From positions 186,001 to 250,000 of the forward strand of contig UYFQ01000023.1 of NCBI GenBank assembly GCA_900617105.1: a stretch of DNA of 64,000 nucleotides, given 5' to 3'. The notes beneath the pieces were generated by a model, which saw nothing but the letters and a program-made list of their open reading frames with translations, did not search any database and was not told the DNA's origin. Numbering within the stretch: the first letter of the stretch is position 1; every line of letters starts with the position of its first letter. This DNA comes from Hydrurus foetidus. Lineage: Eukaryota. This document shows positions 7,458-57,066 of this stretch, in pieces. A program made the position numbers and the translations under genes.

Positions 7458-8399
7458 GTGACACGCCCTATGCAAAACCCTCATCAACGTTTTACCGCCT
7501 ACGCTTGCCTCGCCCTGAGCATGACCCTGGTGGGCAGCTATGTGGCCCTGTCCAAACCCCTGGCGGCCGCCCTGCCCGTCTTCTTGCTGGCGTGGCTGCG
7601 CTTTGGCATCGGTGCCGTTGCCATGCTGAGTTGGCTCAAAAAACCAGCGCTTGAGGCCCCTATGACGGCGCAAACCAAGCGACTGGTGTTTTTGGAATCC
7701 TTCTTGGGCAACTTTTTGTTCTCCATATGCATGTTGTTTGGCGTCAGCCTGACCAGCGCAGTGTCCGCAGGCGTCATCATGGCCGCCATACCCGCAGTCG
7801 TGGCGCTGATGAGCTGGGCTTTTCTGCGCGAACGCATCGGGCGGCGCACCGTGGCCTCCATTGCCTGCGCCATCATCGGCATTGGCTTGTTGACGCTATC
7901 AAAATCAGAGCTACCCGTACATGCAGGGCAAGCTGAAATGGTTGATCCAAACCAAAACCATGCATGGCTGGGCAATCTGCTGCTGATGGGTGCCGTGCTG
8001 TGCGAGGCCGCCTATGCCGTGATCGGCAAAAAGCTCACCGGTGTGCTGACCCCCAAACGCATCAGCGCCCTCATCAACCTCTGGGGGTTTGCGCTGGTCA
8101 CGCCCATGGGGCTGTGGATGGCGCTGCGGTTTGACTTTGCCAGCGTGGCGGGCAGCACCTGGCTGCTGCTGCTCTTCTACGCCCTGGCCGCCAGCGTGGG
8201 GACGGTGTGGCTGTGGATGACCGGCCTGAAAACAGTGGCCGCCGCCCAAGCCGGTGTGTTCACCGTGATGCTCCCCCTGTCAGCGGCGCTGGTCGGCGTG
8301 CTGGTGCTGGGCGAGCGGCTGAACACCACGCAGATGCTGGCCTTTGGCGTGGCCCTGCTAGGCATTGTGCTGGCGACGTTGCCAGAGCGCACGCCTTGA
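7458..8399 (+). CDS. DMT/EamA family transporter
   Basis: About 10 hydrophobic helices in two EamA repeats. Confidence 0.88.
   Translation: MTRPMQNPHQRFTAYACLALSMTLVGSYVALSKPLAAALPVFLLAWLRFGIGAVAMLSWLKKPALEAPMTAQTKRLVFLESFLGNFLFSICMLFGVSLTSAVSAGVIMAAIPAVVALMSWAFLRERIGRRTVASIACAIIGIGLLTLSKSELPVHAGQAEMVDPNQNHAWLGNLLLMGAVLCEAAYAVIGKKLTGVLTPKRISALINLWGFALVTPMGLWMALRFDFASVAGSTWLLLLFYALAASVGTVWLWMTGLKTVAAAQAGVFTVMLPLSAALVGVLVLGERLNTTQMLAFGVALLGIVLATLPERTP
7895..7956 (+). repeat. Dispersed 62-bp motif, copy within the EamA gene
   Basis: GCTATCAAAATCAGAGC-TACCCGT-AC-ATGCAGGGCA-AGC. Confidence 0.7.
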
Positions 8400-8408
8400 G
8401 CATCATCG

Positions 8409-8933
8409 TCATACCAACGGCACGCTGCTGACAACTATCCCATCACCATCGGCGTACAGCCAGTCACCAGGCACCACCCGCACCCCCTGGATATGCACCT
8501 CCACATCACGCTGGCCTTGGTTTTTGCGGTCAGTTGGCAGGGGGATAAGACCCAATGCACGGATGCCCACCTGGTGTGCGGCCAGTTCAGCCACATCGCG
8601 CACGCAACCATCCACCACCACACCGGCCCAGCCATTGCGGGCGGCACTGGCCCCAATCAAGCCGCCAACCAACGCCCGGCGTAACGAGCCCCCGCCATCC
8701 ACCACCAGCACCGCCGACTGCGGCCCCCTGGGGGTATCGACCAAGCCAGAAGATTCCAGCAAGGCTTTCACAAGGCTGTTGTCTTCATAACACTTCACCG
8801 TGACCACGGGGCCGCAAAAGCGGCTTAAAGCACCGTACTCGTGGAACACTGGCGGCAGCACGCGAAAGTGGCCGCTGGTATCGCTTTTATGGGCATCGCA
8901 GAAATCGCAAGTCGAGAATGTGATGGTGGTCAT
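8409..8933 (-). CDS. rraA: RraA family protein (RNase E regulator / HMG aldolase-like)
   Basis: TCDFCD, VKCYEDNS, VLVVDGGGS, GCVRD, YADGDG motifs. Confidence 0.9.
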   Translation of the reverse strand: MTTITFSTCDFCDAHKSDTSGHFRVLPPVFHEYGALSRFCGPVVTVKCYEDNSLVKALLESSGLVDTPRGPQSAVLVVDGGGSLRRALVGGLIGASAARNGWAGVVVDGCVRDVAELAAHQVGIRALGLIPLPTDRKNQGQRDVEVHIQGVRVVPGDWLYADGDGIVVSSVPLV

Positions 8934-9172
8934 GATGGGTTCTCTCTCAGGTGTTGAATTCAGGTTTAAAGAAGGCTTTCAAGGCGCTAGAGCATACAAA
9001 AACCGTGCTGCGCGCAGCAAGGGTGCCAAAAACCACATTCAAACCCTGTTTAAGAGCGAAAAAGTGCCTCCCCCGCTTGGAAAGCCCTGTCTTTCCCAGT
9101 AGCATCGCATGTGCCACCGATTTAGCAGTTTTTTGCTGGTGGCCAATCAACTTCTACAAGGAAAAAGCAACC

Positions 9173-9643
9173 ATGGCAACTGCGAAAACACCAGCTAAAA
9201 AAGCGGCACCTGCAACCAAAGCAGCACCAACGAAGGCCGCTGCGGCACCCGCAAAAAAAGCGGCTCCCGTAGCAAAAGTAGCGGCTCCTGCAAAAGCCGC
9301 CGCACCGGCTGCCAAAGTCGCTGCAAAAGCTGCTGCACCCGCCAAGAAAGCCCCCGCTAAAAAAGCTGCTGTTGAAAAAGCACCTGCTGCCAAGCGCGCT
9401 GTGAACGCGGCTTTCCTCAAGCCCCTGACCCCCAGCGCCGCATTGGCCGCTGTGATTGGTGCCACCCCCATCCCTCGCACCGAAATCGTCAAACAACTGT
9501 GGGTTTACATCAAAAAGCACGGTCTGCAAGACGCTGTGAACAAGCGCATGATCAACGCTGACACCAAGCTCAAAGCCTTCTTTGGCAAAGCCCAAGTGTC
9601 TATGTTCGAGATGGCTGGCATCATTGGCAAGCACGTCAAGTAA
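9173..9643 (+). CDS. SWIB/MDM2-domain protein with a histone H1-like Ala/Lys/Pro-rich N-terminus
   Basis: PAKKAAP repeats then RTEIVKQLWVYIKKHGLQD SWIB motif; AAGGA SD. Confidence 0.9.
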   Translation: MATAKTPAKKAAPATKAAPTKAAAAPAKKAAPVAKVAAPAKAAAPAAKVAAKAAAPAKKAPAKKAAVEKAPAAKRAVNAAFLKPLTPSAALAAVIGATPIPRTEIVKQLWVYIKKHGLQDAVNKRMINADTKLKAFFGKAQVSMFEMAGIIGKHVK

Positions 9644-9678
9644 TCTGATTTTTCCCGCTTTGGGAATTTGAGGAACAC

Positions 9679-9706
9679 AAAAAGCCGCAGCAATGCGGCT
9701 TTTTTT
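9679..9706 (+). terminator. Rho-independent terminator
   Basis: AAAAAGCCGCA-GCAA-TGCGGCTTTTTTT. Confidence 0.8.
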
Positions 9707-9727
9707 ATGGTGAGTGAAAATTACCGC

Positions 9728-10582
9728 ATGCCCGTTGACCACTACGAAAACTTCCCCGTCGCTTCCGCACTGTGCCCACCAGCGCTGCGCCCCCCCATCG
9801 CCGCGATCTACCACTTCGCCCGCACCGCTGACGATATCGCTGACGAAGGGGACGCCACACCGACCCAGCGCTTGGCTGATTTGGCGCAGTTCCGAGCTGA
9901 CTTGCACAGCGCAGTGCAGTCGGCCACCCTCTCCCCCCCTTGCTCACCGCCGCATTCAGGCCGCTGGCCCGGTGTGTTTGACGCCCTGCCTGCTGTAGTG
10001 ACGGAATTCACGCTGCCTGTGCCGTTGTTGGAAGACCTGCTCAGCGCGTTCGAGCAAGACGTGCGTTACAACGCCGAGGGTCGCCACTACGCCACCCGCG
10101 ATGAACTGCTGGACTACTGCCGCCGTTCCGCCAACCCCATCGGGCGGCTGCTGCTGCACCTGTACGGCATCGACGATGCGGCCTCACTGGCGCAAAGCGA
10201 CTGCATTTGCACCGCGCTGCAACTCATTAACTTTTGGCAAGACCTGAGCGTGGACATCCCGCGTGGCCGGTTTTATCTGCCTGCCGATGCTTGCAGCGCC
10301 ATGAACGTCAGCACCGACGACTTGAGTGCGCTCAGTCAAACACCAGACATTACAAAATTAATAGCTGCGCAAGCCCACCTGGCAAGCGCATTGATGCACA
10401 AAGGCTCAGCGCTTGCCAAAACCATCCCAGGGCGAGCTGGTTGGGAGTTGCGCTTGGTGGTGCAAGGCGGCCTGCGTATTTTGGACAAAATGGCAGCGAT
10501 GAACCACGCTACCCTGCAAACGCGCCCCAAGCTGCGCTGGCCCGATGTGCTGGTGATGCTGTGGCGAGCGGTGTGGATGTAG
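9728..10582 (+). CDS. hpnC: Squalene synthase HpnC
   Basis: HYENFPVAS, ADDIADEG, YCRRSANPIGRL, NFWQD. Confidence 0.93.
   Translation: MPVDHYENFPVASALCPPALRPPIAAIYHFARTADDIADEGDATPTQRLADLAQFRADLHSAVQSATLSPPCSPPHSGRWPGVFDALPAVVTEFTLPVPLLEDLLSAFEQDVRYNAEGRHYATRDELLDYCRRSANPIGRLLLHLYGIDDAASLAQSDCICTALQLINFWQDLSVDIPRGRFYLPADACSAMNVSTDDLSALSQTPDITKLIAAQAHLASALMHKGSALAKTIPGRAGWELRLVVQGGLRILDKMAAMNHATLQTRPKLRWPDVLVMLWRAVWM
10349..10410 (+). repeat. Dispersed 62-bp motif, copy within hpnC
   Basis: ATTACAAAATTAATAGC-TGCGCAA-GC-CCACCTGGCA-AGC. Confidence 0.65.
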
Positions 10583-10626
10583 CGCAATGCCACAATCCAC
10601 CCCTCCTTTTCCCCCACGCCACCCTT

Positions 10627-10663
10627 CCCCACCAGCCCCCACCAGCCCCCACCAGCCCCCACC
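10627..10663 (+). repeat. Tandem repeat (CCCCACCAGC)x3.7 immediately before the hpnD start codon
   Basis: Read directly from the sequence. Confidence 0.8.
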
Positions 10664-11503: not shown

Positions 11504-11597
11504 GGAACAGGGCTGAAGTGCAACAAACTTGAAGCTTAAAATCTAGGCTTTGAGTTGCCCTACCTCATCACGCCTGAACTCTTCTTGGAGATGCGAC

Positions 11598-11870: not shown

Positions 11871-11886
11871 TGCACCCACCCACACC

Positions 11887-13236
11887 GTGAACATCGCCAT
11901 CATCGGTGCCGGTTGGGCAGGTCTTACAGCCGCTGTGCGTGCGGTGCAGAGCGGCCACCGCGTCACCCTGTTTGAAGCCACCCGCAGCCCTGGGGGGCGC
12001 GCCAGAGCCGTCGTGTTGCCCGCGTCAGAGAGCCAGCCAGACGGCGCAGCGCTCACCCTCGACAACGGCCAGCATATTTTGATAGCAGCCTACACAGACA
12101 CTCTGAGGCTGATGCGCTTGGTGGGTGTCAACCCTGACACCGTGCTGATGGCGCAAGCCCTGTCGCTCACCTTCCCCGATGGCACGGGTCTGCAACTCCC
12201 CGATTGGCCCAGCCGCTTTGATGCGCTGGCCGTGCTGGCTGGTATCGCTACCGCCAAAGGCTGGACATGGCGCGACAAGTTCAGCCTGCTGCGCACCGCT
12301 GTGGCGTGGCAGCGCGGGGACTTTCAGTGCAGCCCGAACCAGACCGTGGCCCAACTGTGCGCCACCGTCACGCCCGCCGTGCGCGACGGCTTTATCGAGC
12401 CATTGTGTGTCTCCGCCCTCAATACCCCTGCCTCCAGAGCCAGTGGACAGGTTTTTTTGCGGGTGCTGCAAGATTCGATGTTCGGCGTGCCCGGTGGCTC
12501 CAAGCTGCTGCTGCCCCGCGTCGATTTGGGCCAGCTTTTCCCGGAGCCTGCGCTGAAGTGGTTGATCGCACAAGGCTGCGACGTGCGGATGGGCGAGCGC
12601 ATCAGCGGCCTGCACCACACCACTTCGGGCTGGTGCGTGGGGACACAGCCTTTTGACCATGTGATTTTGGCAACTTCAAGCACAGAATCGGCCCGTCTGC
12701 TTGCCGCATCAGCGCAGACAGCTACAGAAACCATAGCAAACCAATTGCACGACTGGGCGGCTACCGCCACGGCACTGCGGTTTGAAGCCATCACCACGGT
12801 GTACGCCCACAGCCCGCAAGGTCTGCCCAAACCGCTGTTGGCGCTGCGGGCCACAGCACAGCCCCCCGAATACCCGGCGCAGTTTGTGTTTGACAAAACC
12901 CAGTTGACCGGCACAGCAGGCTTGCTGGCTTTCGTGGTGAGCGCCAGTGTGGGCGACAAAGCCACGGTGCAAGCCCAGGTGGTGGCGCAGGTCAAAGCCC
13001 AACTGGGTTTGGCCATCACGCCCCTGCAAACCATCGTCGAAAAACGCGCCACTTTCGCCTGCACGCCGGGCTTGCAACGCCCCGCACAGCACATTGCAGC
13101 GGGCTTGAGTGTCTGTGGCGATTACGTGGAAGGGCCGTACCCCGCAACGCTGGAAGGCGCTGTGCGCAGCGGGTGGGCGGCGGGTGGGCTTGTCACCCCA
13201 AGTGCGCGCACAAGGCCGTCAAATCCGCCACAGTGA
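11887..13236 (+). CDS. hpnE: Hydroxysqualene dehydroxylase HpnE
   Basis: IIGAGWAG FAD motif, DNGQHIL, YPATLEGAVRSG; follows hpnCD. Confidence 0.92.
   Translation: MNIAIIGAGWAGLTAAVRAVQSGHRVTLFEATRSPGGRARAVVLPASESQPDGAALTLDNGQHILIAAYTDTLRLMRLVGVNPDTVLMAQALSLTFPDGTGLQLPDWPSRFDALAVLAGIATAKGWTWRDKFSLLRTAVAWQRGDFQCSPNQTVAQLCATVTPAVRDGFIEPLCVSALNTPASRASGQVFLRVLQDSMFGVPGGSKLLLPRVDLGQLFPEPALKWLIAQGCDVRMGERISGLHHTTSGWCVGTQPFDHVILATSSTESARLLAASAQTATETIANQLHDWAATATALRFEAITTVYAHSPQGLPKPLLALRATAQPPEYPAQFVFDKTQLTGTAGLLAFVVSASVGDKATVQAQVVAQVKAQLGLAITPLQTIVEKRATFACTPGLQRPAQHIAAGLSVCGDYVEGPYPATLEGAVRSGWAAGGLVTPSARTRPSNPPQ
12070..12131 (+). repeat. Dispersed 62-bp motif, degenerate copy within hpnE
   Basis: CAGCATATTTTGATAGC-AGCCTAC-AC-AGACACTCTG-AGG. 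Confidence 0.4.
12676..12737 (-). repeat. Dispersed 62-bp motif, copy within hpnE
   Basis: Minus strand GCTATGGTTTCTGTAGC-TGTCTGC-GC-TGATGCGGCA-AGC. Confidence 0.7.
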
Positions 13237-18563: not shown

Positions 18564-19136
18564 CTACAAAAACAACTGCGCCAATTCAGCCCCCACCACC
18601 AGCCGTATGCCCTGCACTTTGGCGAAGGTGCTGGCGGTGTCGGTGACTTGGCTCAGGCCATTCAAGCAGAGGTAGGTGCAGCTGTCGGCACCGCGCTTGT
18701 CTCGCTCAGCCACCAAATCGCGCAGCGCGTCGATGCCGTGGTTGGCGGCTTTCCAGCGTTTGGCGCTGACGATGGTGGTGCTGCCGTTTTTCAGCAAGCT
18801 GAAGTCGGCGGCGGGGCTGTTGATGCGTGTCACTGTGGAGCCTCGGCGCAGGTAGGCTTGCTCTAAGGCTTCAGAGAACTCACGCCACGGCATGGCGCTG
18901 ATTTTGGCCTGCATATCAAGCAGCAGCGCGGGGCTGGGGGCGTGCCATTGCCGCCATGCGGTGATGCAGCCAATCGCCAAAAACGGAAACGAACCCATCA
19001 TCCCGAAAGCCACGTACTCCCGGGGCAGCAGCGCCAACGAGGCGGCGGCGAACACGGCGACCACCGCAAAGCTGATCCACGAGGGGGATCGCAGCAGTAT
19101 GGCGAACACCGAGTTGTCGGACATTTTGAATTTCAT
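18564..19136 (-). CDS. Membrane-anchored Mrr-type restriction endonuclease domain protein
   Basis: Two N-terminal TM helices, WREFS, ADF...SAKRWK. Confidence 0.75.
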   Translation of the reverse strand: MKFKMSDNSVFAILLRSPSWISFAVVAVFAAASLALLPREYVAFGMMGSFPFLAIGCITAWRQWHAPSPALLLDMQAKISAMPWREFSEALEQAYLRRGSTVTRINSPAADFSLLKNGSTTIVSAKRWKAANHGIDALRDLVAERDKRGADSCTYLCLNGLSQVTDTASTFAKVQGIRLVVGAELAQLFL

Positions 19137-19189
19137 GGGCTTCCTGTTGTTGTCTTTTGTTTTTTGAACGACGGGTTAAGTCGGCATAT

Positions 19190-20038
19190 TTAACCCGCCT
19201 GCATCCGCAAACGGCGAGCGGCTTCTTCGTCGCGGGCATCGCCAATCTCGCGCAACACGCCGCCCATGTCCACCGGGCCGGCTTTGCGTTTGAACTGGCC
19301 GGTCAGCACGGTGTCCACACTCAAAATGCCACGTTGGTACAAATCCCAAATTTCGGGGCCGTAGTGGGTGGGCAGCAGTACGGGGGCAAAGTTGCCGAAG
19401 AAATTGCGCAGGTTTTCCACGTCGCGCAGCAGCATCCGCTGGGCGTGGTTGTTGCCCGCAGCGTCCACGGCTTGGGGCAGGTCGATGATGACGGGGCCGT
19501 CGGCGGCCAGCAGGATGTTGAATTCGGACAAATCGCCGTGGACGATGCCTGCCCCCACCAGCATCCGCACCACTTCTTTGAGCAAGGTGGCGTGGTGGGC
19601 GATGGCCTGTTCGGGGGTCAGCACCACGTCGTTCAGGCGCGGGGCTGCGTCGCCGTGTTCGTCGGTGACGAGTTCCATCAGCAGCACGCCATCGCAAAAG
19701 TTATACGGTTTGGGCACCCGCACACCGGCACCCGCGAGGCGGTAGAGGGCATCTACCTCGGCGCTTTGCCATGCGGCCTCTTGGGATTCGCGGCCAAACT
19801 TGCTGCCTTTGGCCATCGCGCGGGCTTGGCGGGTGTTTTTGACCTTGCGGTTTTCGGTGTAGTCCACGGCTTGTCGAAAGCTGCGGTGGGTGGCTTCTTT
19901 GTAGATTTTGGCGCAACGGGTGTCATCGCCGCAGCGCACCACGTAGACCATGGCTTCTTTGCCGCTCATAAGCTGGCGCACCACGGTGTCGATCAGCCCT
20001 TCTTCGATCAGGGATTGCAGTCTTGGAGGTGGTTTCAT
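19190..20038 (-). CDS. RIO1-family protein kinase
   Basis: SGKEA, AKIYK, HGDLSEFNIL, IIDLPQ. Confidence 0.92.
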   Translation of the reverse strand: MKPPPRLQSLIEEGLIDTVVRQLMSGKEAMVYVVRCGDDTRCAKIYKEATHRSFRQAVDYTENRKVKNTRQARAMAKGSKFGRESQEAAWQSAEVDALYRLAGAGVRVPKPYNFCDGVLLMELVTDEHGDAAPRLNDVVLTPEQAIAHHATLLKEVVRMLVGAGIVHGDLSEFNILLAADGPVIIDLPQAVDAAGNNHAQRMLLRDVENLRNFFGNFAPVLLPTHYGPEIWDLYQRGILSVDTVLTGQFKRKAGPVDMGGVLREIGDARDEEAARRLRMQAG

Positions 20039-31211: not shown

Positions 31212-31304
31212 GGAGCGATGACCGAGTGGCCGAAGGTGCTCCCCTGCTAAGGGAGTATGGGGTGTAGAGCCTCATCGAGGGTTCGAATCCCTCTTGCTCC
31301 GCCA
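31212..31304 (+). tRNA. tRNA-Ser(GCT)
   Basis: GGAGCGA acceptor arm, CTCCC-CT-GCT-AA-GGGAG anticodon arm, long variable arm, GGTTCGAATCC, 3' GCCA. Confidence 0.96.
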
Positions 31305-35556: not shown

Positions 35557-37464
35557 CTACGCTACAAATTTAAGAGCAGGTACAGCATCACTGATGTGCG
35601 CTGAGAAGCATTTTCGAATTGATTTAGCAATACCTACAGCGTCCAGCCCTTGCAAAACCATCAGCCGGGCAGGATCGCCATGCTCAATGAATTCATCCGC
35701 CAAGCCGAGCACCAACAAAGGTTTCTGCACACCTGCAGCAGCCAAGGATTCTGCAACGGCGCTGCCAGCACCACCCATCACAGTACCCTCCTCCAGCGTG
35801 ACCAAGGCACTGTGGTCGGATGCGACTTGAAGCAACAAGGCCAAGTCCAGCGGCTTGGCCCAGCGCATGTTCACCACGGTGGCATTCAACTGCTCAGCCG
35901 CGTCCAAGGCGGGGTAGAGCAGCGTGCCAAAAGCCAAAATCGCCACCCCGCTTCCACGACGGCATATTTCACCCTTACCGAAAGGCAAAGCCTCCAAGCT
36001 GGAGGTGGTTGCCACGCCCGCACCAGCCCCACGCGGATAGCGTACCGCCACCGGGTGGTTTTGGGCATAAGCACTGCTCAGCAACTGGCGGCATTCCTGC
36101 TCGTCAGCGGGGCAGGCGATGCTCATATTGGGAATGCAGCGCAAAAATGCAATGTCATAAGCACCTGCATGTGTGGCCCCATCCGCGCCCACCAAACCCG
36201 CACGGTCAAGGGCAAACACCACGGGCAGATTTTGGATCGCCACGTCGTGGATCAACTGGTCATACGCCCGCTGCAAGAACGTGGAGTAAATCGCCACCAC
36301 CGGCTTCAAACCTTCACAGGCCAAGCCCGCCGCAAAGGTCACGGCGTGCTGCTCGGCGATGCCCACGTCAAAGTAACGACTGGGGAAGCGTTTTTCGAAC
36401 TCAACCATGCCAGAGCCTTCGCGCATCGCCGGGGTGATGCCCACCAAGCGCGAATCGTGCGCTGCCATGTCGCACAGCCATTGGCCGAACACCTGCGTGA
36501 ACGTGGCTTTGGCAGGTGCGGCGGCCTTCAGCAACCCGACCGCCGGGTCGAACTTGCCAGGGCCGTGGTAGGCCACGGGGTCAGCCTCGGCCAACTTGTA
36601 GCCTTGGCCTTTCTTGGTGACAACATGCAAAAACTGCGGGCCGCTGCTGGTGGCCAGCAGGTGCTTGATGTTCTCTAGCGTGGGGATCAGCGATTCCAAA
36701 TCATGGCCGTCAATGGGGCCAATGTAGTTGAAGCCGAATTTTTCGAACAAAGTGGCAGGCACCACCATGCCTTTGGCGTGCTCTTCAAAGCGCTTGGCCA
36801 GCTCGAACAAGGGCGGCGCCACTTGCAGCACATGCTTGCCTACGTTTTTGGCGGCGGCGTAAAACTGCCCGCTCATCAGTTGGGCTAAATAGCGGTTCAA
36901 TGCGCCCACGGGCGGGCTGATGGACATGTCGTTGTCGTTCAAGACGACCAGCAGTTTGCCGCCTTCGTGCAACTGCACACCAGCGTTGTTCATCGCCTCA
37001 AAAGCCATGCCAGCGGTCATCGCACCGTCACCAATCACGGCGATGGCGTGGCGGTTTTCGCCTTTGAGCTTGGCGGCCAACGCCATGCCCAAGGCGGCTG
37101 AAATGCTGGTGGACGAGTGCGCGGTGCCAAAGGTGTCGTACTCGCTTTCTTTGCGCTGGGGGAAGCCGCTCAGGCCGCCCAGTTGGCGCAAGGTGGGCAG
37201 GCGGTCACGGCGACCCGTCAAAATTTTGTGGGGGTAGGTTTGGTGGCCTACATCCCAGACGATGCGGTCGTTGGGCGTGTCAAACACGTAGTGCAAGGCG
37301 ACTGTCAGCTCGACGGTGCCCAGGTTGGAGCTGAGGTGCCCCCCGGTGGCGGCGACGTTGCTTAGCACGCAGGCACGCAGCTCGTCAGCCAATGTGCCCA
37401 ACTGGGCGCGGGGCAGGCGGCGCAGGTCAGCCGGGTCGTTCACGGTGTCAAGCAAGGTTGGCAT
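35557..37464 (-). CDS. dxs: 1-deoxy-D-xylulose-5-phosphate synthase
   Basis: [37 protein letters not shown]. Confidence 0.97.
35561..35622 (+). repeat. Dispersed 62-bp motif forming the dxs C-terminus
   Basis: GCTACAAATTTAAGAGC-AGGTACA-GC-ATCACTGATG-TGC...CATTTT. Confidence 0.7.
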
Positions 37465-40058: not shown

Positions 40059-40120
40059 GCTCCTGATTTGATAGCTTATCCAGCCCATCCAATAAGCTCA
40101 TAAGCCCATTTTTATCCTGT
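40059..40120 (+). repeat. Dispersed 62-bp motif, intergenic copy
   Basis: GCTCCTGATTTGATAGC-TTATCCA-GC-CCATCCAATA-AGC...CATTTTT. Confidence 0.75.
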
Positions 40121-40130
40121 AAATTACCCT

Positions 40131-41520: not shown

Positions 41521-42384
41521 ATGACCTACACCACCCTGATCTCGATTCCCCAGATCCAAGCCCTGCAAGCCGCTGGCACCCCGTTGATGGTGTTTGACTG
41601 CACCTGTGACCTGATGAAGCCTGAGCTGGGGCCACAGCAGTACACCGAGTCACACATCCCCGGTGCCATCTACGCCAATTTAGACACCGCCTTGAGCGAC
41701 AAATCGGGTGCGGCAGATACCGCCTCAGGTGGCCGCCATCCCCTGCCCTCGCGCGAAAAATTCGCAGCGTGGCTCAGCAGCGTCGGTTTCACCAACACCA
41801 TGCAGGCCGTGGTTTACGACCGCAACGGCGTGAACTACGCCGGTCGCCTGTGGTGGATGCTGAAATGGGCCGGACACGATGCGGTGGCGGTATTGGACGG
41901 AGGGCTGCAAGCCTGGACGGCCAGCGGCGGCGAGGAAGCGCGGGGCGTTGAAACCCCATTAGCACCCTCAAAATACGCCTTATCGCAGCCTTTGCGTGTG
42001 TTAGCAGCTATTAAAACCGTAGCATCCGGTATCGGAAAAGCCCACCAAACCATCATCGACGCCCGTGCCACACCGCGCTTCAAAGGCGAAGTAGAGCCGC
42101 TAGACCCCATCGCCGGTCACATCCCTGGCGCGTTGAACCGGCCCTTCAACCTGAACATCGGTGCCGACGGCAAATTCAAACCCGCTGCACTTCTCAAAGC
42201 CGAGTTCGAAGCGCTTTTGGGAGGCCGCGACCCGTCCAGCGTCGTCCACCACTGCGGCAGCGGCGTGAGTGCCGTGCCGAATGTGCTGGCGATGGAAATT
42301 GCGGGCTTGGGGCAAGCTGCGCTGTTTGCAGGCAGCTGGAGCGAGTGGAGCAACACGGCAGGGATGCCAGTGGCGCAGGGCTGA
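41521..42384 (+). CDS. sseA: Sulfurtransferase (two-domain rhodanese)
   Basis: HIPGA twice, GRHPLP, CGSGVSA, GSWSEW. Confidence 0.88.
   Translation: MTYTTLISIPQIQALQAAGTPLMVFDCTCDLMKPELGPQQYTESHIPGAIYANLDTALSDKSGAADTASGGRHPLPSREKFAAWLSSVGFTNTMQAVVYDRNGVNYAGRLWWMLKWAGHDAVAVLDGGLQAWTASGGEEARGVETPLAPSKYALSQPLRVLAAIKTVASGIGKAHQTIIDARATPRFKGEVEPLDPIAGHIPGALNRPFNLNIGADGKFKPAALLKAEFEALLGGRDPSSVVHHCGSGVSAVPNVLAMEIAGLGQAALFAGSWSEWSNTAGMPVAQG
41962..42023 (-). repeat. Dispersed 62-bp motif in the sseA interdomain linker
   Basis: Minus strand GCTACGGTTTTAATAGC-TGCTAAC-AC-ACGCAAAGGC-TGC...TATTTT. Confidence 0.7.
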
Positions 42385-42509: not shown

Positions 42510-43788
42510 CGTATATTCAATCCGCCGAGCAGTTAAGCTTGAATTGTTTGATTGAACAGGCTGGGTCGGGAGAGGCTGGCAAGACTTTGAGCATTGAAGC
42601 TCGTGGGTCAGATAAGTCCCCCGATCCATTATTCGTTCCATCAAAGATCGAACGGTAACTTGGGCCGCTGCCTTGTGCTGATGAGCCCGCATACGAGGTG
42701 GATCATGAATGGTAACGAAGCTTCTGCATCAAGCATTTTGGCAACGACTGACGTGCATGTGGGTATCGATGTATCCAAGCTCAAACTTGATGTCGCACGC
42801 CTGCGGCATGGAAAGTTTCGAAGCAAGGTGTTCAGTAACAATGTTGCAGGGTTCAAAGCACTTGTAGCGTGGCTACTTGAAGATGGCGTGACGCTCAGCC
42901 AAGCGCACCTGTGTTTAGAAGCCACAGGCCCCTACAGCGAAGCATTGGCCGTTTGGCTGTGTGATGCTGGATGGCGAATCAGTGTGGTCAATCCAGCCCG
43001 TGTGAAGGGATTTGCTCAAAGCGAGCTGGCACGAAACAAGACTGACAAAGCAGACGCCGCCTTGATTGCACGGTTTTGCGCCGCGCTTGCGCCCGAACCA
43101 TGGTGCCCACCCAGCATGGCCATTCGCCAACTGCGCAGCTTGGTAGAGCGGCTGCAAGCGCTCAAAGACATGCACCAGCAAGAAGTCAACCGCATGGAAG
43201 CAGCTCATGCAACGGGCGACAAGTTAACGCAGACCTACATTCGCGAGCATGTGGTCTATCTGGAGGCCGCGATCAAGACACTGCAAAAGGCCATTGACGA
43301 CCACATTGCGGGCGAGCCTCAATTGCACAGTGATGCCCAGTTGCTCGCCAGTATCCCAGGCATAGGGGCAGTGACGCTTGCCAAAGTCATGGCTTATGCG
43401 GGCAATGTAGAGCGATTTACCAGTGCAAAGGCCCTCAGTGCTTTTGCCGGTGTATGCCCTCAGCAACGGCTGTCAGGCACCAGCGTAAAGGGGCGCAGCA
43501 TGATCAGCAGGCGTGGGCATGAGGATTTGCGCCGTTCGCTGTACATGCCTGGCATGGTGGCACTTCGTTACAACCCGCTGGTTCAGGAAATGGCGCTGCG
43601 CTTGAGAGCAAAAGGCATGGCCCCCAAGGCCATCATTGCTGCGGCGATGCATAAATTGCTGCATTTGATCTACGGCGTTTTGAAAACGCGTAAACCGTTT
43701 GATGCGAACTGGGCTAAAAATACCGCCACCTTGATGGCAGATTCCGTCATTTTTTCAGTCAGAACTGTTGACTTTCAAGACGGTATCT
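42510..43788 (+). mobile_element. IS110-family (IS621-like) insertion sequence, apparently complete
   Basis: DEDD recombinase; CT core at 42508-42509 and 43787-43788; ends ACGGTAT-CT / CT-CGTAT resemble the IS621 donor; no terminal inverted repeats. Confidence 0.9.
42518..42702 (+). ncRNA. Bridge RNA of the IS110 element (predicted; 5' end approximate)
   Basis: Target loop guides GCAAGACTT (42579-42587) and GGGTCAG (42605-42611); donor loop guides ACGGTAACT (42652-42660) and ATACGAG (42691-42697); flanking stems present. Confidence 0.85.
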
Positions 43789-43790
43789 GA
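42705..43790 (+). CDS. IS110-family recombinase (transposase)
   Basis: VGIDVSK, LEATG, KTDKADA (DEDD), SIPGIG, RLSGTS catalytic Ser; GAGGTGG SD. Confidence 0.95.
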   Translation: MNGNEASASSILATTDVHVGIDVSKLKLDVARLRHGKFRSKVFSNNVAGFKALVAWLLEDGVTLSQAHLCLEATGPYSEALAVWLCDAGWRISVVNPARVKGFAQSELARNKTDKADAALIARFCAALAPEPWCPPSMAIRQLRSLVERLQALKDMHQQEVNRMEAAHATGDKLTQTYIREHVVYLEAAIKTLQKAIDDHIAGEPQLHSDAQLLASIPGIGAVTLAKVMAYAGNVERFTSAKALSAFAGVCPQQRLSGTSVKGRSMISRRGHEDLRRSLYMPGMVALRYNPLVQEMALRLRAKGMAPKAIIAAAMHKLLHLIYGVLKTRKPFDANWAKNTATLMADSVIFSVRTVDFQDGI

Positions 43791-46580: not shown

Positions 46581-47372
46581 CTAATGCCCATGCACCCAGC
46601 CACTGACCACAGTGACCAAAGCAATCCCCACCAGCAGCCACGCAATCTGTGCCCCCGTCTCGCGGGCGGTCAAACGCTTTTGCAGCTGGGGTATCAAATC
46701 GGCCAGCGCCACGTACACAAAACTGCTGGACGCAGCCACCAAAAAATACGGCAGACCGCTTTGCAATTGCGCCACCAAAAAGAACCCCGCCAACCCACCC
46801 ACCGCTGTCACAGCCCCAGCCAGCGACACCTTCAGCAAGGCTATTTTGGGGTTGGATGAGCTTTGGCGCAGCACGATCAAATCGCCCATGTGGTGCGGCA
46901 CCTCATGCGCCAGCACGGCCAATGCAGCCACCAGCCCCAAATGCATGTCTGCGACAAAGGCCGAGGCAATCAGAATGCCATCGCCAAAGCAATGCACGCT
47001 GTCGCCCGTCAACACCGCCCAGCCACCGGGTTTGGGGGGGCTGTGGTGGTGGCCGTGGTGATCATGGCTGTGGCCATGGTCAGCAGCCTCATGGTGGTGC
47101 TCATGCCCGTGGTGCCACAGCTCCGCTTTGTCGAGCAAAAAGAAAAACACCAAACCCACCAGCAGCGTGGCAAACAGCGCTTTGGGCTCAATGCCGCTCT
47201 CGAAGGCTTCGGGCAGCAGGTGCATGAAGGCCGTGGCGAGCAACGCACCGGCGGCGAGACTGAGCAAATGCTGGGTAAAGCGGCCCATCAAAGCCATGCT
47301 GAGCAGGGCGGCAAGCCAAACACTGCCAATACCGGTTGCCAAAGTGGCGAAAAAAATGGCTACTAAAGTCAT
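46581..47372 (-). CDS. ZIP family metal transporter
   Basis: HLLPEA, His-rich loop, HEVPH. Confidence 0.9.
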   Translation of the reverse strand: MTLVAIFFATLATGIGSVWLAALLSMALMGRFTQHLLSLAAGALLATAFMHLLPEAFESGIEPKALFATLLVGLVFFFLLDKAELWHHGHEHHHEAADHGHSHDHHGHHHSPPKPGGWAVLTGDSVHCFGDGILIASAFVADMHLGLVAALAVLAHEVPHHMGDLIVLRQSSSNPKIALLKVSLAGAVTAVGGLAGFFLVAQLQSGLPYFLVAASSSFVYVALADLIPQLQKRLTARETGAQIAWLLVGIALVTVVSGWVHGH

Positions 47373-47420
47373 AGCTGAATACGCATACGAGGTATACGGT
47401 AAAACCTTATTTCTGAATCA
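47359..47420 (+). repeat. Dispersed 62-bp motif overlapping the ZIP start codon
   Basis: GCTACTAAAGTCATAGC-TGAATAC-GC-ATACGAGGTA-TAC...TTATTT. Confidence 0.65.
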
Positions 47421-47427
47421 AAAATAT

Positions 47428-51066: not shown

Positions 51067-51882
51067 TTAAAACTGAGGTTTGCGTTTTTCGAGAAAGGCC
51101 GTGATGCCTTCACGGTGTTCAGCGGAATCGGCGTACTGGTAGGCGGCACGGGGTTCACGCAAGAGCAAAGACATATTTGCTACATTTTCAATAGCTTCAT
51201 TCGCATAGGGGCTGTGCAGTGAAGCGCTTATTTTACGAAAAACCTGCTTGTTCATCCGCGCCGCAAGAGGCGCCAAACCCGCGATGCGCTGGGCGCTGGC
51301 CTCGGCGCTGGCAGCCACAGCATCGTCCGCCTGCACACGGTTCAAAAAGCCACGGGCTTTCATCTCTGCGGCGCTGAGCACGGCGGCTTCCAGCAGCATT
51401 TCGCGGGCGGTCAACTCGCCAGCGGCGCGGGCCACCAGCGCGGCTTCGCGGGGGGCCATCGGAAAGCCGAGTTTGGCGATGGGCGCGCCGAACTGGGCAG
51501 AAGCACCGGCGATGCGCAGGTCGCAGCAACTGGCGATCTCCATGCCCGCGCCCATGCATGCGCCTTCGATCAACGCGACGATGGGCACATCGCAGGCCAG
51601 CATGGCTGAGAGGCCGCCCCAGACATCGCTCTCGTGGAATTCGCGCAGCGCGGCAGCGTCAAAACGGAACGCCGGGTATTCGGAGATGTCGCCCCCTGCA
51701 CAAAAGCTGTTTTCATCACCTTGAATCAGCACGCAGCGCACGGCTGGCGTGCTGTGCAAGCTCTCAAAAACAGAGCGCAGCTCACGCCACATAGCGCGTG
51801 ACATGGCGTTGAGTTTGCCGGGGTGCGACAGCATGACGTGCGCCACCGCACCGTCAAGCTTGACTTGGATGTGTCCGCTCAT
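51067..51882 (-). CDS. Enoyl-CoA hydratase/isomerase family protein
   Basis: FCAGGDI, CDLRI, EGITAFLEKRKP. Confidence 0.88.
   Translation of the reverse strand: MSGHIQVKLDGAVAHVMLSHPGKLNAMSRAMWRELRSVFESLHSTPAVRCVLIQGDENSFCAGGDISEYPAFRFDAAALREFHESDVWGGLSAMLACDVPIVALIEGACMGAGMEIASCCDLRIAGASAQFGAPIAKLGFPMAPREAALVARAAGELTAREMLLEAAVLSAAEMKARGFLNRVQADDAVAASAEASAQRIAGLAPLAARMNKQVFRKISASLHSPYANEAIENVANMSLLLREPRAAYQYADSAEHREGITAFLEKRKPQF
51179..51240 (+). repeat. Dispersed 62-bp motif within the enoyl-CoA hydratase gene
   Basis: GCTACATTTTCAATAGC-TTCATTC-GC-ATAGGGGCTG-TGC...TTATTTT. Confidence 0.72.
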
Positions 51883-52971: not shown

Positions 52972-52974
52972 AAA

Positions 52975-54510
52975 TCAACCCAGCAGGCTGTCCACGGTGC
53001 TGGAAACGGGTATTTTTCCCTGAAACAGCAGGGCGCGGTGTTTGTCCAGCCGTTTCAGGTCGTAGAGGTAATTCACCATCAACCCATGCGATTGTTTGAG
53101 GCCTTTGGTGGACGGGTCGCCCGCCCAGTTCAGCTGCTCGACGCGGGCACCGTTGCCCAGGTGAAAGCGGGCCACGGGGTCAGCGGGTTTGCCGCCCACC
53201 ATCTCACGGCCCAGGTACTGCGCGGCGGCGCGTTTCATGAAACGGCGCACCGGCGAAGTTTCGGGCAGGGCAAGGGGCTTGTCCATCGCCGACTGCACAT
53301 GCTCGGCCAGCGGTGGCTCAAAGCCCACGGCGCGGCCTAATTCGGCCAGCTCCTTCTCGTTCAAGCGGGCCAGCATGGCGGTGGTGTTTTTGCCCAACCA
53401 CGCTCTGAAACCGGGGATGGGCGACAGGGTGGCGAAGGTTTTGAGGCGGGGGAACTCCACCTTCAGCGTTTCCACCACCGTTTTAATCAGCGAATCGCCA
53501 AAACTCACGCCGCGCAGGCCGGTCTGGGTGTTGCTGATAGAGTAAAAAATGGCCGTGGTGGCTTTGCTCAAGTCTTCGGCATCAGCAGACTCGTCCAGCA
53601 ATGGCGTGATGCAGCGGGCGATGCCATCGAGCATGGCCACCTCGACAAAAATCAGCGGCTCATCGGGCAGCCGGGGGTGGAAGAAGCCGTAGCAGCGGCG
53701 GTCTGAATCCAGCCGGTTTTTGACATCGGCCCAGCTTTTGATGTCGTGAACGGCTTCATATTTGATGAGTTTTTCGATCAGCGACGCGGGCGAATCCCAG
53801 CTGATGCGGCGCAGGTTGAGAAAGCCCACGTCAAACCAAGTGGAGAACATGTACTCCATCTCCACGTCCAGCGCCTGCAAGCGCTTGTCGGTTTTGAGGT
53901 ACGGCAGCATGTCGGCCCGCATGTCCACCAAGAAGCGAATGCCCTCGGGGAACACGCTGAAACGCTGCAACAAACGGCGGCGCGGCGACACGGTGGCGCG
54001 GCGGTAATGCACCTCGGCCACGGCTTCGTCGGGCGTACCCACCGCTGCGGCGAACTGGGCTTGTGCAAGCTTGAGCGTGGCTTGGTCAGCGACGAATTGC
54101 TCGCTCATCAGCAGCCACATGTCACGCCGCCGCTCGACGGTCGCACTGGCGTACCAACCCGCCACGCCTTTGGCCCGCACACCACCTTCGACTTCGCTGA
54201 CCTGGGGGTCAACGATGGCACGCAACTCTTCCAGGGTGCGGCGCAGCACGCGGGGCGAGAGGGCTTCTTCCTTTTGCCGCAGCGTGGCTTTGAGGCGCTC
54301 GCGGGTGGAGCGTGAGGCAGACTCTGGGGCATTCGGGGTGGTGGAGGCGTTTGAGGCATTCGCCGCACTGACAGCCTCTTTCGCTACACTTTTCGCAGCT
54401 GCTGTCGCATTACTGGCCAGCTGAGAAGGCGTATTTTTCTCATTTTTGGCGGCTGGTGCCGGGGTGCGCAGCTTGGAAACGCTGCGAGAAATCCAATTGG
54501 GGGTACTCAT
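52975..54510 (-). CDS. Malonyl-CoA decarboxylase
   Basis: YEAVH, DRRCYGFFHP, FYSISN, TLSPIPGF, DPVARFHLGNGA. Confidence 0.93.
   Translation of the reverse strand: MSTPNWISRSVSKLRTPAPAAKNEKNTPSQLASNATAAAKSVAKEAVSAANASNASTTPNAPESASRSTRERLKATLRQKEEALSPRVLRRTLEELRAIVDPQVSEVEGGVRAKGVAGWYASATVERRRDMWLLMSEQFVADQATLKLAQAQFAAAVGTPDEAVAEVHYRRATVSPRRRLLQRFSVFPEGIRFLVDMRADMLPYLKTDKRLQALDVEMEYMFSTWFDVGFLNLRRISWDSPASLIEKLIKYEAVHDIKSWADVKNRLDSDRRCYGFFHPRLPDEPLIFVEVAMLDGIARCITPLLDESADAEDLSKATTAIFYSISNTQTGLRGVSFGDSLIKTVVETLKVEFPRLKTFATLSPIPGFRAWLGKNTTAMLARLNEKELAELGRAVGFEPPLAEHVQSAMDKPLALPETSPVRRFMKRAAAQYLGREMVGGKPADPVARFHLGNGARVEQLNWAGDPSTKGLKQSHGLMVNYLYDLKRLDKHRALLFQGKIPVSSTVDSLLG
54383..54444 (+). repeat. 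Dispersed 62-bp motif within the malonyl-CoA decarboxylase N-terminus
   Basis: GCTACACTTTTCGCAGC-TGCTGTC-GC-ATTACTGGCC-AGC...TATTTTT. Confidence 0.68.
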
Positions 54511-55187: not shown

Positions 55188-55250
55188 AGGGGAAGGCAGG
55201 CAAGAATTCAGGTGACAGAGAAAATGGTGCTGATGCGTAATTTCAAATAA

Positions 55251-55270
55251 TTACTCATAATTATGACAAT
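55251..55270. promoter_or_regulatory. Candidate GntR operator for the malonate operon
   Basis: TTACTCATAATTATGACAAT with the perfect core palindrome TCATAATTATGA. Confidence 0.6.
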
Positions 55271-55273
55271 ACG

Positions 55274-55305
55274 AAAAAAATGCGCAAGACCAGCTGCGCA
55301 TTTTT
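55274..55305 (-). terminator. Terminator (possibly bidirectional)
   Basis: AAAAAAATGCGCA...TGCGCATTTTT. Confidence 0.6.
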
Positions 55306-55344
55306 CAGTCCTTGTAAACCCTTAGCGGCAGAGCCACCCTGAGC

Positions 55345-55554
55345 TCAGTCGTCAAGGGATGATGCATTGCGCCACTGGGGATACCGTGCATCCATCCAAG
55401 CCTCACGCTGCCCAGGCGGCAACGCCATCACTTCTTCGCCCAAGCGCTGCACGTTTTTGCTCCAAACGCGCAACTCGTCCTCCTCCGAGTCATCAAAGGT
55501 GACGGTGATGTGTCTGGGAGTAGTAGCTGTAGCGGGGCGTGTTTCGGTGATCAT
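55345..55554 (-). CDS. Small acidic hypothetical protein (69 aa)
   Basis: ATGA overlap with the upstream ORF; FDDSEEDE acidic patch. Confidence 0.6.
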   Translation of the reverse strand: MITETRPATATTPRHITVTFDDSEEDELRVWSKNVQRLGEEVMALPPGQREAWMDARYPQWRNASSLDD

Positions 55555-56117
55555 GATTTTTCCCGAGTGTAAATTAAGGCCAGTTTTTGAGCACTCATCG
55601 CCCATGTGAGGTGCTCGGCTTCAGCCCGAATGTAGGCCGAATCAATCTCTCCAGCAACTGCGCGTTGCAACGCCATCCATTCCGCACGCCCTTTGCTCGC
55701 GTTGATGGCGGACAAAACGGCTTCTCGGGTTGGCCAGCCATAGGGCTTCATGGGCGTGAGCGAATACCGCATCGTTCCCGTGACGACACGCACTTGCGCC
55801 AATTGCAACTCAGAAGCACTCACCACATCGTCTTTTGAAAATGAAGCCCCGCCAGGATGGTTGTGGGTAAACGTCCGTCCAGAAAGCAACAGTGCCGGAA
55901 CATCCGAGAAACTCACTTGATTGGGAACGCCTTGACGCTGCGCCACCACATGGCCCACCTCATCAAAGAAAGCACCGGTCTCCAGTTTGTCTCCACGGAT
56001 TTGATTCTCAAACGTCACCACAGCCAGCTTGAGCGGGGTAGAGACATCCGCCGTCACAGCAAGCTGGGTACTGTCGTAAATGGTGAATTGACCACTTGGC
56101 TGTTTAAACCGGGGCAT
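55551..56117 (-). CDS. JAB/MPN-like domain protein (188 aa)
   Basis: E...THNHPGGASFSKDD JAMM-like motif; starts 3 nt after the lgt stop. Confidence 0.65.
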   Translation of the reverse strand: MPRFKQPSGQFTIYDSTQLAVTADVSTPLKLAVVTFENQIRGDKLETGAFFDEVGHVVAQRQGVPNQVSFSDVPALLLSGRTFTHNHPGGASFSKDDVVSASELQLAQVRVVTGTMRYSLTPMKPYGWPTREAVLSAINASKGRAEWMALQRAVAGEIDSAYIRAEAEHLTWAMSAQKLALIYTREKS

Positions 56118-56119
56118 GC

Positions 56120-56950
56120 TTAACCACGGGTAAGCGTCATGTTCGACTCGCCCCGTCCGAACCACCACCACAGACCCAGACCCACAGCCATCATCGGCAC
56201 GCACAGCCACTGCCCCATGCTCATGCCCAAGCTGAGCAGGCCCAAGTGGGCATCGGGTTCGCGAAAGAATTCGGTGATGAACCGCAACACGCCGTAGCCC
56301 AGCAAGAACATCGCGGCGACCTGCCCCTCGCGTCGCTCGCTTCTGGCGTACAGCCACAGCACCACGAACAGCACCGGCCCTTCGGCCAGAATTTGGTACA
56401 CCGACGACGGGTGGCGCGGCAGCATGGAGCCGCTGTTGGGGAAAATCATCGCCCAAGGCAAGGTGGCATCGGCAAAGCGTCCGGGCAATTCACCGTTGAT
56501 GAAGTTACCCACCCGGCCACAGGCCAAACCGGTGGGCACGCAGGGGGCGATGAAATCCATCACTTGCCAAAACGGGCGAGCGCGTGAATAGGCAAACCAG
56601 ATTTGCGAGACAATCACGCCCAACATCCCGCCATGAAACGACATGCCACCCTGCCAAACGGCAAAAATTTCTAAAGGATGGCTGGCGTAATACCCCGGCT
56701 TGTAAAACAAGCAATAACCGATGCGCCCGCCCAGCACCACACCCAGCACACCGAGGAACAAAATATCTTCAACATCCTTACGCAGCCACGCACCCGCTCC
56801 GGTGATGCGGGCAAACGGCTGGTGGCGCAAACGCAGCGTGCCCAGCCAGACAAAGAAGCCGAAGGCGGCGAGGTAGGTCAGCCCATACCAATGGATGGCC
56901 ACAGGGCCGAGTTGCAGGGCGACGGGGTTGAGTTGGGGGTATGTCAGCAT
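56120..56950 (-). CDS. lgt: Prolipoprotein diacylglyceryl transferase
   Basis: HWYG, GGMSFHGG, GRVGNFINGEL, EFFREPD. Confidence 0.97.
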   Translation of the reverse strand: MLTYPQLNPVALQLGPVAIHWYGLTYLAAFGFFVWLGTLRLRHQPFARITGAGAWLRKDVEDILFLGVLGVVLGGRIGYCLFYKPGYYASHPLEIFAVWQGGMSFHGGMLGVIVSQIWFAYSRARPFWQVMDFIAPCVPTGLACGRVGNFINGELPGRFADATLPWAMIFPNSGSMLPRHPSSVYQILAEGPVLFVVLWLYARSERREGQVAAMFLLGYGVLRFITEFFREPDAHLGLLSLGMSMGQWLCVPMMAVGLGLWWWFGRGESNMTLTRG

Positions 56951-57004
56951 GGGCTGGATTGTGCCTTGGTGTTGCGCCCTCTCGCGTGGCGAGCACTGAA
57001 ACAG

Positions 57005-57066
57005 ACTCCTTTATTGATAGCTGTCACCGCAATAATCCTGAGGGATAAAGGCATTTTTTATTCCCA
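57005..57066 (+). repeat. Dispersed 62-bp motif, intergenic copy
   Basis: ACTCCTTTATTGATAGC-TGTCACC-GC-AATAATCCTG-AGG...CATTTTTT. Confidence 0.68.

What the first reader, a model, noticed from the sequence alone, without database searches (positions are those of the whole stretch)
7895..57066. A ~62-bp phased motif repeated about 12 times, mostly inside protein-coding genes
Seen: copies start at 7895, 10349, 12070, 33784, 35561, 40059, 47359, 51179, 54383 and 57005 (+), and at 12737 and 42023 (-). Ungapped alignment gives an AT-filled palindrome GCTAY-N7-RTAGC (positions 1-17), RC at 25-26 in 12/12, WGC at 37-39 in 9/12 (AGG, AGG, TAC otherwise), and usually a T-tract near 50-55. Copies were picked by the first palindrome, so the fixed-distance downstream positions are independent support. 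Nine lie wholly in CDSs (EamA, hpnC, hpnE twice, 33643 ORF, dxs, sseA, enoyl-CoA hydratase, malonyl-CoA decarboxylase), in either orientation and without breaking frames. That is about one per 5 kb. Spacing is conserved while the intervening sequence is not, which fits a protein-binding site better than a recent MITE. Inference: a genome-wide chromosome-organisation or DNA-uptake-like signal, or an ancient coding-invasive element akin to Rickettsia palindromic elements. I know of no characterised function.
Basis: seen in the sequence. Interest (0 to 1): 0.85.

Follow-up and report, generated by a model that had tools for sequence, protein, structure and literature searches.

The report
Seventy-base DNA signal overwriting genes
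A roughly 70-base DNA motif recurs about every 5-6 kb in this bacterium and many relatives, often spelled inside working genes and kept at the same spots across species, so it is likely a protein-read genomic signal (possibly a self-DNA uptake tag) rather than a jumping repeat.

Summary
Real. The element is about 70 bp: a dyad GCTMY-W7-RKAGC with a one-sided phased tail. It occurs about once per 5 kb in many Comamonadaceae, is patchy within the family and nearly absent outside it. It shows no strand or ori/ter bias and was absent from integrated conjugative elements. The dyad shows no pairing covariation and RAYT genes are not specifically flanked. Orthologous copies persist across species with only the motif-defining bases conserved, and one base switched together at 10 of 11 old sites. 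Of 17 coding sites, 8 show no length change and none adds the full unit. It behaves like a recognition signal kept up in place. Best guess: a long DNA-uptake-type tag (0.4). Rivals: a chromosome-organising site (0.3) or a domesticated mobile repeat (0.2). No receptor was found. Fragments were listed as unexplained motif pairs in 2017. This scan reported the same family before in other genomes (9 notes seen).

The parts
7895..7959 (+). Motif copy in EamA gene 7458-8399 (sense, residues 146-168); dyad intact, tail decayed
   Evidence: Score 16.5; same site in 5 of 5 relatives, 20-46 bits, no indel among them; +9 aa against motif-poor G508
10349..10413 (+). Motif copy in hpnC (sense, residues 228-249); dyad intact, tail decayed
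   Evidence: Score 14.6; 40 bits at this site in G003 and G359; absent in G490 with no length change
12673..12737 (-). Motif copy in hpnE (antisense)
   Evidence: Score 25.7; +8 aa against G490 and G003, which lack it
35561..35625 (+). Motif copy in the last 22 codons of dxs (antisense)
   Evidence: Score 29.4; shared with G001, G002, G490; not scored in G003, G359
40059..40123 (+). Intergenic copy between the Rieske oxygenase stop (40035) and EamA start (40131)
   Evidence: Score 38.5; diverged copies visible in the same gap in G001, G490, G003
41959..42023 (-). Motif copy in sseA (antisense), written over the inter-domain region without length change
   Evidence: Score 34.5; same register in G001, G002, G359, G490; orthologs without it (e.g. 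G004, G003, G387) have the same length
47359..47423 (+). Copy overlapping the start codon of the minus-strand ZIP transporter gene and the gap upstream of it
   Evidence: Score 34.7; dyad shared in 5 of 5 relatives
51179..51243 (+). Motif copy in a length-variable C-terminal loop of the enoyl-CoA hydratase (antisense)
   Evidence: Score 25.9; missing with the loop in G001; +7 to +16 aa against motif-poor orthologs
51712..51776 (-).
   Evidence: Score 22.5; among 61 gap-free orthologs only 3 score above 0, median -39.7; no indel against G508 or G504
54383..54447 (+). Motif copy in the variable N-terminal extension of malonyl-CoA decarboxylase (antisense)
   Evidence: Score 26.7; the same peptide pattern in many of the 60 alignment rows shown of 81
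57005..57069 (+). Strongest copy; upstream of lgt, overlapping an unverified ORF 57011-57511
   Evidence: Score 43.7; the ORF has no Pfam or NCBIfam match

Best explanation
The motif is a roughly 70-bp, lineage-restricted DNA signal that recurs about once per 5-6 kb, is conserved base by base at orthologous sites and is written into genes largely without adding length, and it is likely read as double-stranded DNA by a sequence-specific protein complex, most likely as a long DNA-uptake tag that spreads by biased uptake and recombination. Shown: anatomy (symmetric 17-bp dyad with an A/T spacer; tail with GC blocks at 23-26, 38-41, 46-48 and A/T blocks at 51-54, 61-65); no pairing covariation in the dyad; retention and position-specific conservation at old sites; concerted change of one base across old sites; in-place formation in conserved proteins; absence from integrated conjugative elements; near-zero counts in lineages nested among motif-rich ones. 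Confidence that it is a protein-read signal kept up in place is about 0.8; the figure below is for uptake specifically.
For: (1) DNA-level: dyad arms vary independently (4:14 paired 0.63 against 0.64 expected; 5:13 0.53 against 0.51; n=238); downstream of genes it lies in either orientation, 71 against 76. (2) Maintained: orthologous copies present in 15 of 15 (G499/G005), 14 of 15 (G005/G520), 22 of 22 (G501/G500) alignable sites; high-information positions differ 6-8% where four-fold codon sites differ 41%. (3) Dialects: position 39 is G in 19 of 20 G520 copies and C in 26 of 33 G005 copies, and 10 of 11 orthologous C sites in G005 are G in G520. (4) In-place formation: zero net length change at 8 of 17 distinct coding sites (MutB, biotin carboxylase, HpnC, HscA, HscB, RsxB, PheT, ECH), plus SseA and a DnaX site built largely from synonymous changes; zero-indel sites score 19-40, most length-gaining sites 43-60. 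(5) Core-genome pattern: 0 copies in six 20-kb stretches of G004 that are conjugative-element or IS-rich DNA, against 17 in four core stretches; no strand or ori/ter bias; copies in temperate phages. Points 3-5 parallel DUS/USS: dialects (PMC3630211, abstract), core enrichment, permissive sites and absence from acquired genes (PMC2397512, passages). ComEC is present in 45 of 45 genomes searched, and two family members show selective transformation with no signal identified in the passages read (PMC4212676).
Against: No uptake was tested. Known uptake tags have 9-12-bp cores; this one is about 70 bp with a dimer-type dyad. ComEC and PilE/ComP-family pilins are as common in motif-poor genomes, and no pilin shared by motif-rich genomes turned up among the 20 stand-alone loci fetched (91 of 241 pilin matches were unlisted). 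The one species with demonstrated selective uptake, V. eiseniae, has a single unrelated motif pair in the PMC5217627 table, so that experiment cannot be credited to this motif. Site scores are bimodal with few near-matches, unlike gradual build-up. Two intergenic copies come with 82-101 extra bases, which looks like whole-unit gain or loss. Copies fold slightly more stably than column-shuffled controls (-8.5 against -6.9 to -7.5 kcal/mol) and two tail pairs are slightly over-paired. The ICE stretches were chosen because they were gaps in a stricter list. G508, used as the motif-poor comparison, keeps remnants and probably lost the motif, so it is not a clean never-had outgroup.
Confidence: 0.4

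Rival explanations
1. The motif is a binding site for an unidentified cytoplasmic chromosome-organising or topology protein (nucleoid protein, topoisomerase loader), a dimer on the dyad with DNA wrapped along the phased tail; each site is kept by selection for chromosome function.
For: Symmetric dyad with independently varying half-sites; A/T-G/C phasing peaking near 11 bp (no null computed), resembling the 10.75-bp arms of the gyrase motif (PMC6379681, passages); non-genic copies favour convergent gene ends, 42 convergent against 14 divergent of 119, where gaps run 40 to 61; fewer gaps under 1 kb than random, 10 against 22 (regions partly orthologous).
Against: Avoiding promoters explains the convergent bias equally well.
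Confidence: 0.3
2. The motif is an old non-autonomous mobile repeat (REP/MITE-like) spread by an unknown enzyme, whose copies partly overwrite their targets and are later homogenised by gene conversion.
For: Whole-unit presence/absence with +82 to +101 bp at two intergenic sites; +7 to +16 aa at 4 of 17 coding sites; bimodal scores; sharp left end; genome-specific variants and one tandem triplet; uneven divergence among copies, 0-17 of 38 positions; proximity to gene 3' ends as for REPs; an earlier scan note read it this way (e1-5196137).
Against: No hairpin covariation in the dyad; Y1 transposases are missing from motif-rich G004 and G466, present in 10 of 13 motif-free genomes, and flanked at only the genome-average density (16 copies in 21 loci); old copies stay put while only contact-like positions are conserved or switch together; sites in DnaX and ECH keep the host protein's conserved residues and length.
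Confidence: 0.2
3. The motif acts as RNA (3'-end stabiliser, terminator or translation element).
For: Many intergenic copies start within 40 bases of a stop codon, and coding copies favour the antisense strand, 56 against 33; slight folding excess.
Against: Both orientations are equally common downstream of genes; no dyad covariation; no Rfam family over the window's copies or over 19 strong copies in two loci.
Confidence: 0.05

Closest known systems
DNA uptake sequences: USS of Pasteurellaceae, DUS of Neisseriaceae (PMC2397512, PMC2817400, PMC7811141 passages; PMC3630211 abstract)
   Same: Hundreds of strand-neutral copies in the core genome, absent from acquired DNA, overprinted on coding sequence at permissive sites with reading-frame bias, lineage dialects, A/T tracts beside a conserved core (USS).
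   Different: About 70 bp with a symmetric dyad against a 9-12-bp core; one per 5 kb against roughly one per 1-1.5 kb; bimodal quality; some length-gaining copies; no uptake shown and no receptor found.
Unexplained spaced motif pairs of Tong et al. 2017 (PMC5217627: section 13 and supplementary file 2 rows)
   Same: GCTAT(N7)ATAGC in Acidovorax ebreus and Rhodoferax ferrireducens, ATAGCT(N22)CAAAAG in Polaromonas naphthalenivorans and GCTTAT(N5)AAGCG in A. ebreus fit this element's positions (my mapping); they also noted convergent-gene placement.
   Different: Listed as separate pairs with no function; the parts I read do not join them into one element or describe in-gene overprinting, dialects, conservation or distribution.
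GTAG-tagged REPs and RAYT/REPIN systems (PMC3733652: part 1 of 8 and a term search)
   Same: High-copy palindromic repeat near gene 3' ends, an RTAG within the motif, some intragenic copies.
   Different: No stem covariation, few clusters, twice the length, no specific RAYT flanking; the paper's main text names none of five Comamonadaceae genera searched (figures and supplements not seen).
Rickettsia palindromic elements (as described in PMC3733652, background)
   Same: Repeat found in frame inside working genes.
   Different: RPEs insert in frame; this motif adds 0-16 residues, never the whole unit.
matS, parS, KOPS, Chi, SlmA and Noc sites (recalled); gyrase motif (PMC6379681, passages)
   Same: Protein-read chromosomal DNA signals, often inside genes; phased G/C arms (gyrase).
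   Different: No ori/ter confinement or strand polarity; far longer than matS, KOPS or Chi; far more sequence-specific than the gyrase motif.

Membership tests
DNA uptake sequences (DUS/USS) | Raises uptake of DNA that carries it | not testable with these tools
   Needs a bench assay
DNA uptake sequences (DUS/USS) | Short (9-12 bp) core as the main determinant | tested here: not met
   Information spread over about 70 bp with a 17-bp dyad
DNA uptake sequences (DUS/USS) | Over-represented in core genome, absent from acquired DNA, no strand bias | tested here: met
   ICE test in one genome, stretches chosen from gaps
DNA uptake sequences (DUS/USS) | Forms in place inside genes; lineage dialects | tested here: met
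DNA uptake sequences (DUS/USS) | Dedicated pilin receptor co-occurring with the signal | tested here: inconclusive
   PF16732 in 36 of 40 genomes regardless of motif; no candidate among 20 fetched pilin loci; list incomplete
REP/REPIN-RAYT | Tagged hairpin with compensatory stem changes | tested here: not met
   Paired fraction equals expectation in the dyad; only 0.06-0.07 excess at a few tail pairs
REP/REPIN-RAYT | Cognate Y1 transposase flanked by the repeat and co-distributed with it | tested here: not met
   inverted pairs around the gene in 3 of 21 loci, at genome-average density
Rickettsia palindromic elements | Full-length in-frame insertion | tested here: not met
   Net change -6 to +16 aa at 17 sites, none near +21
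MITE | Terminal inverted repeats at both ends and target duplication | tested here: not met
   Dyad is internal and the tail one-sided in 78 of 78; no duplication visible at the one insertion aligned in full
Replichore/macrodomain signals (KOPS, Chi, matS, parS) | Strand polarity or ori/ter confinement | tested here: not met
   39 leading against 32 lagging of 71 in G499, hand count with terminus assumed opposite dnaA; copies at ori and ter
Structured RNA (Rfam) | Match to a family or conserved pairing | tested here: not met

The most novel reading that the evidence does not exclude
Probability: 0.6. Interest if true: 0.9.

Novelty: new variant of a known kind. Interest (0 to 1): 0.72.

Why it matters
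Sequence-specific DNA uptake signals are established in only two bacterial families, and selective uptake reported in Comamonadaceae has no known signal. This motif gives a defined sequence to test. If it is an uptake tag it would also make these bacteria easier to manipulate genetically. It also explains odd alanine-rich peptides and rare codons in their proteins.

Tried and rejected
The window's own genome is not held, so genome-wide counts come from relatives. Rejected copies: 12070 and 33784. An apparent ori/ter gap in G004 proved to be conjugative elements, with dnaA elsewhere. RAYT as mobiliser: not supported. ComEC, PilE/ComP-family and stand-alone pilins as discriminators: none. GyrA C-terminal domain as reader: no separating residue. 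Two-tailed copies suggested by the sparse pattern in phages were not confirmed by the matrix and are not claimed. Hypermutation at the motif: low-information positions exceed four-fold sites in close pairs (17-25% against 13-20%) but not in the distant pair (25-32% against 41%), so it is not claimed. Close pairs alone cannot show selection, because copies were chosen in one genome. Single-copy blastn gave 2 long plasmid matches, both in Comamonadaceae hosts, and no meaningful match among cultured phages; this test is insensitive. No RNA holder was listed; the one RNA run laid gave no reads, which is no test. Contigs of two runs match the window across the listed pieces with no joints at the copies. 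VeiPR1 of V. eiseniae (PMC3975124, one passage; the thesis was not seen) could not be compared. OxyR, IHF, Fis, Lrp, LysR-box, DnaA-box and integrase-core resemblances were considered from recall only and not tested. One script stopped before its last five alignments. No description of the full element was found in paper searches; subscription journals and theses are not covered.


Full report
Observation. The dyad with at most one mismatch occurs 11 times against 2.93 expected. Leave-one-out scoring was negative for 12070 and 33784 and revealed a further copy at 51776(-). A matrix trained on 226 copies from relatives, with no window copy, gives 14.6-43.7 bits for the other ten and 22.5 for 51776; the next unrelated site scores 4.6, and 12070 and 33784 score -10.4 and -16.7. 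Within 44 annotated CDS, 8 hits were seen against a mean of 0.03 in 200 codon-resampled controls. Genes were named by Pfam and NCBIfam. The host is a Comamonadaceae-like bacterium, judged from the titles of the nearest loci and a single-gene tree; its genome is not held.

Anatomy. An iterated matrix over relatives' loci shows information from about position -4 to +65: a dyad GCTMY-W7-RKAGC, then T-rich 18-22, GC blocks at 23-26, 38-41 and 46-48, and A/T blocks at 51-54 and 61-65. Selecting by the strict dyad alone, 78 of 126 sites carried the window-trained tail on one side and none on both (loci partly orthologous). In 238 de-duplicated copies the dyad arms vary independently; observed pairing equals expectation, and both half-sites share the same variant spectrum. 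A few tail pairs are over-paired by 0.06-0.07 and folding energy is about 1.2 kcal/mol below a column-shuffled null that also destroys neighbour correlations. A/T content oscillates with a peak near 11 bp (no null). Rfam has no match over copies.

Distribution. A strict 41-base pattern gave 35-272 matches in 5 of 5 related genomes, both strands alike, controls 0-1. In an order-wide sample only 8 of 301 genomes matched, and all but the centre genome had 1-5 matches. In a family sample 69 of 201 matched, 34 of them with 20-577, and 132 had none. Among 30 close relatives, 12 had 103-356 matches, 4 had 22-66 and 14 had 0-7. On the MCD tree, motif-poor genomes sit as supported sisters of motif-rich ones at least three times (one gene, many assembled bins). 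A remnant in motif-poor G508 points to loss there. Density is 209 copies in 1.02 Mb: 89 wholly in predicted CDS (56 antisense, 33 sense), 42 between convergent, 14 between divergent and 63 between co-oriented genes, by a crude ORF caller. In complete genome G004, six 20-kb stretches with no copy hold conjugative-element, integrase or IS genes, against 17 copies in four core stretches; these stretches were picked as gaps, which biases the contrast. In G499, 71 strict matches split 39 leading to 32 lagging by hand count, and copies lie at ori and ter. Of 144 nearby ORFs, 89 were scanned and many are typical phage genes. The 48 records searched carry 1-6 matches each, and 16 are classed as proviruses (selected for having one match).

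Evolution at fixed sites. Orthologous copies are retained in 15 of 15, 14 of 15, 13 of 14 and 11 of 13 alignable sites among four Rhodoferax-like genomes, and 12 of 17 in the reverse comparison from G524; among three Polaromonas genomes at 91-94% identity, 22 of 22, 21 of 23, 14 of 14 and 14 of 15. High-information positions differ by 9-19% and low-information positions by 33-51%; in G499/G005, 6-8% against 41% at four-fold sites. Position 39 is G in 19 of 20 G520 copies and C in 26 of 33 G005 copies, and 10 of 11 orthologous C sites are G in G520. G350 has its own variant at position 24. A new master copy spreading to new places cannot change old copies; site-by-site selection or conversion can.

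How copies arise. The SseA copy occupies a stretch of the same length as in motif-less orthologs, and a second lineage has a copy there in another register. HpnC lacks the motif in G490 with no indel; HpnE gains 8 residues. Against two motif-poor genomes, 42 comparisons reduce to 17 distinct sites after dropping orthologous repeats and one opposite-strand ORF artefact: 8 have no net length change, the rest range from -6 to +16 residues, and none adds the full unit. Local amino-acid identity is 0.34 against 0.77 in 2,966 control windows. A DnaX site keeps the host residues and differs largely at third positions (gene named from its sequence by recall). The 51776 dyad needs only a few changes from the codons of motif-less orthologs. 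Against a purely gradual origin: scores are bimodal, and two intergenic copies come with 82-101 extra bases. Both modes appear to exist.

Y1 transposases are missing from two motif-rich genomes and present in 10 of 13 motif-free ones; 16 copies lie in 21 flanking loci, about the genome average. ComEC is in 45 of 45 and PF16732 pilins in 36 of 40 genomes regardless of motif. Twenty stand-alone pilin loci gave no shared candidate. The GyrA C-terminal domain does not separate 10 rich from 10 poor genomes.

Literature. PMC5217627 (passages, section 13, supplementary rows) lists the dyad and two other fragments as unexplained pairs in three Comamonadaceae, 10-37% genic, and gives V. eiseniae only an unrelated pair. 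PMC4212676 (passages) reports sequence-selective, pilus-dependent uptake in V. eiseniae and same-species transformation in A. temperans, naming no signal in the passages read. PMC2397512, PMC2817400, PMC7811141 (passages) and PMC3630211 (abstract) supply the DUS/USS comparison; PMC3733652 (part 1 of 8 and term search) the REP and RPE comparison; PMC6379681 (passages) the gyrase motif; PMC3975124 (one passage) mentions VeiPR1. Searches found no description of the whole element; subscription papers, theses and unseen supplements may hold one. Earlier scan notes report the same family in other genomes: one gave the lead to the 2017 paper and read it as REP-like, eight reach an uptake-like reading. 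They are not independent evidence.

Verdict. A real, old, family-restricted DNA signal of about 70 bp, kept up in place and overprinted on genes. It works like an uptake sequence in its evolution but fails the short-core test, and uptake is untested, so it is not filed as a DUS or USS; it also fails the REP, MITE and RPE tests. Uptake tag 0.4, chromosome-organising site 0.3, domesticated mobile repeat 0.2, RNA element 0.05. Interest 0.72.

Noticed in passing
window 42594-43790: IS110-family transposase; its contig depth is about five times the flanks in two runs, and relatives' contigs join across it, so it is a multi-copy insertion downstream of sseA.
   Followed up: partly
window 31212-31301: tRNA gene by Rfam.
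   Followed up: no
window 8951-9643: SWIB/MDM2-domain protein beside the hpnCDE cluster.
   Followed up: no
window 18564-20038: Mrr-type restriction endonuclease gene next to a RIO-domain kinase gene.
   Followed up: no
L094-L096 and L098-L100 (G004): Two PFGI-1-class integrating conjugative elements, one starting after trpE, both free of the motif.
   Followed up: partly
L475 3154-3510 (G381): Three tandem copies at a 146-bp period just after a stop codon; this genome's copies are unusually uniform.
   Followed up: partly
L085 175-237 and 3524-3627 (G150): Overlapping inverted pairs at gene ends forming terminator-like palindromes, in a genome with few strict matches.
   Followed up: no
G499 97409 versus G520 76785 (concatenated coordinates): The same intergenic site holds the motif in opposite orientations in two genomes.
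   Followed up: partly
L520, L521 (G001, G350): GyrA C-terminal domain carries 19- and 8-residue insertions at one loop, unrelated to the motif.
   Followed up: no
L152, L155, L161: Other short repeats around Y1 transposase genes, candidate true REPs distinct from this motif.
   Followed up: no
L050 ECH gene: A motif-poor, distantly placed genome shares the 51776 dyad at the same site (score 17.5): remnant, transfer or convergence.
   Followed up: no
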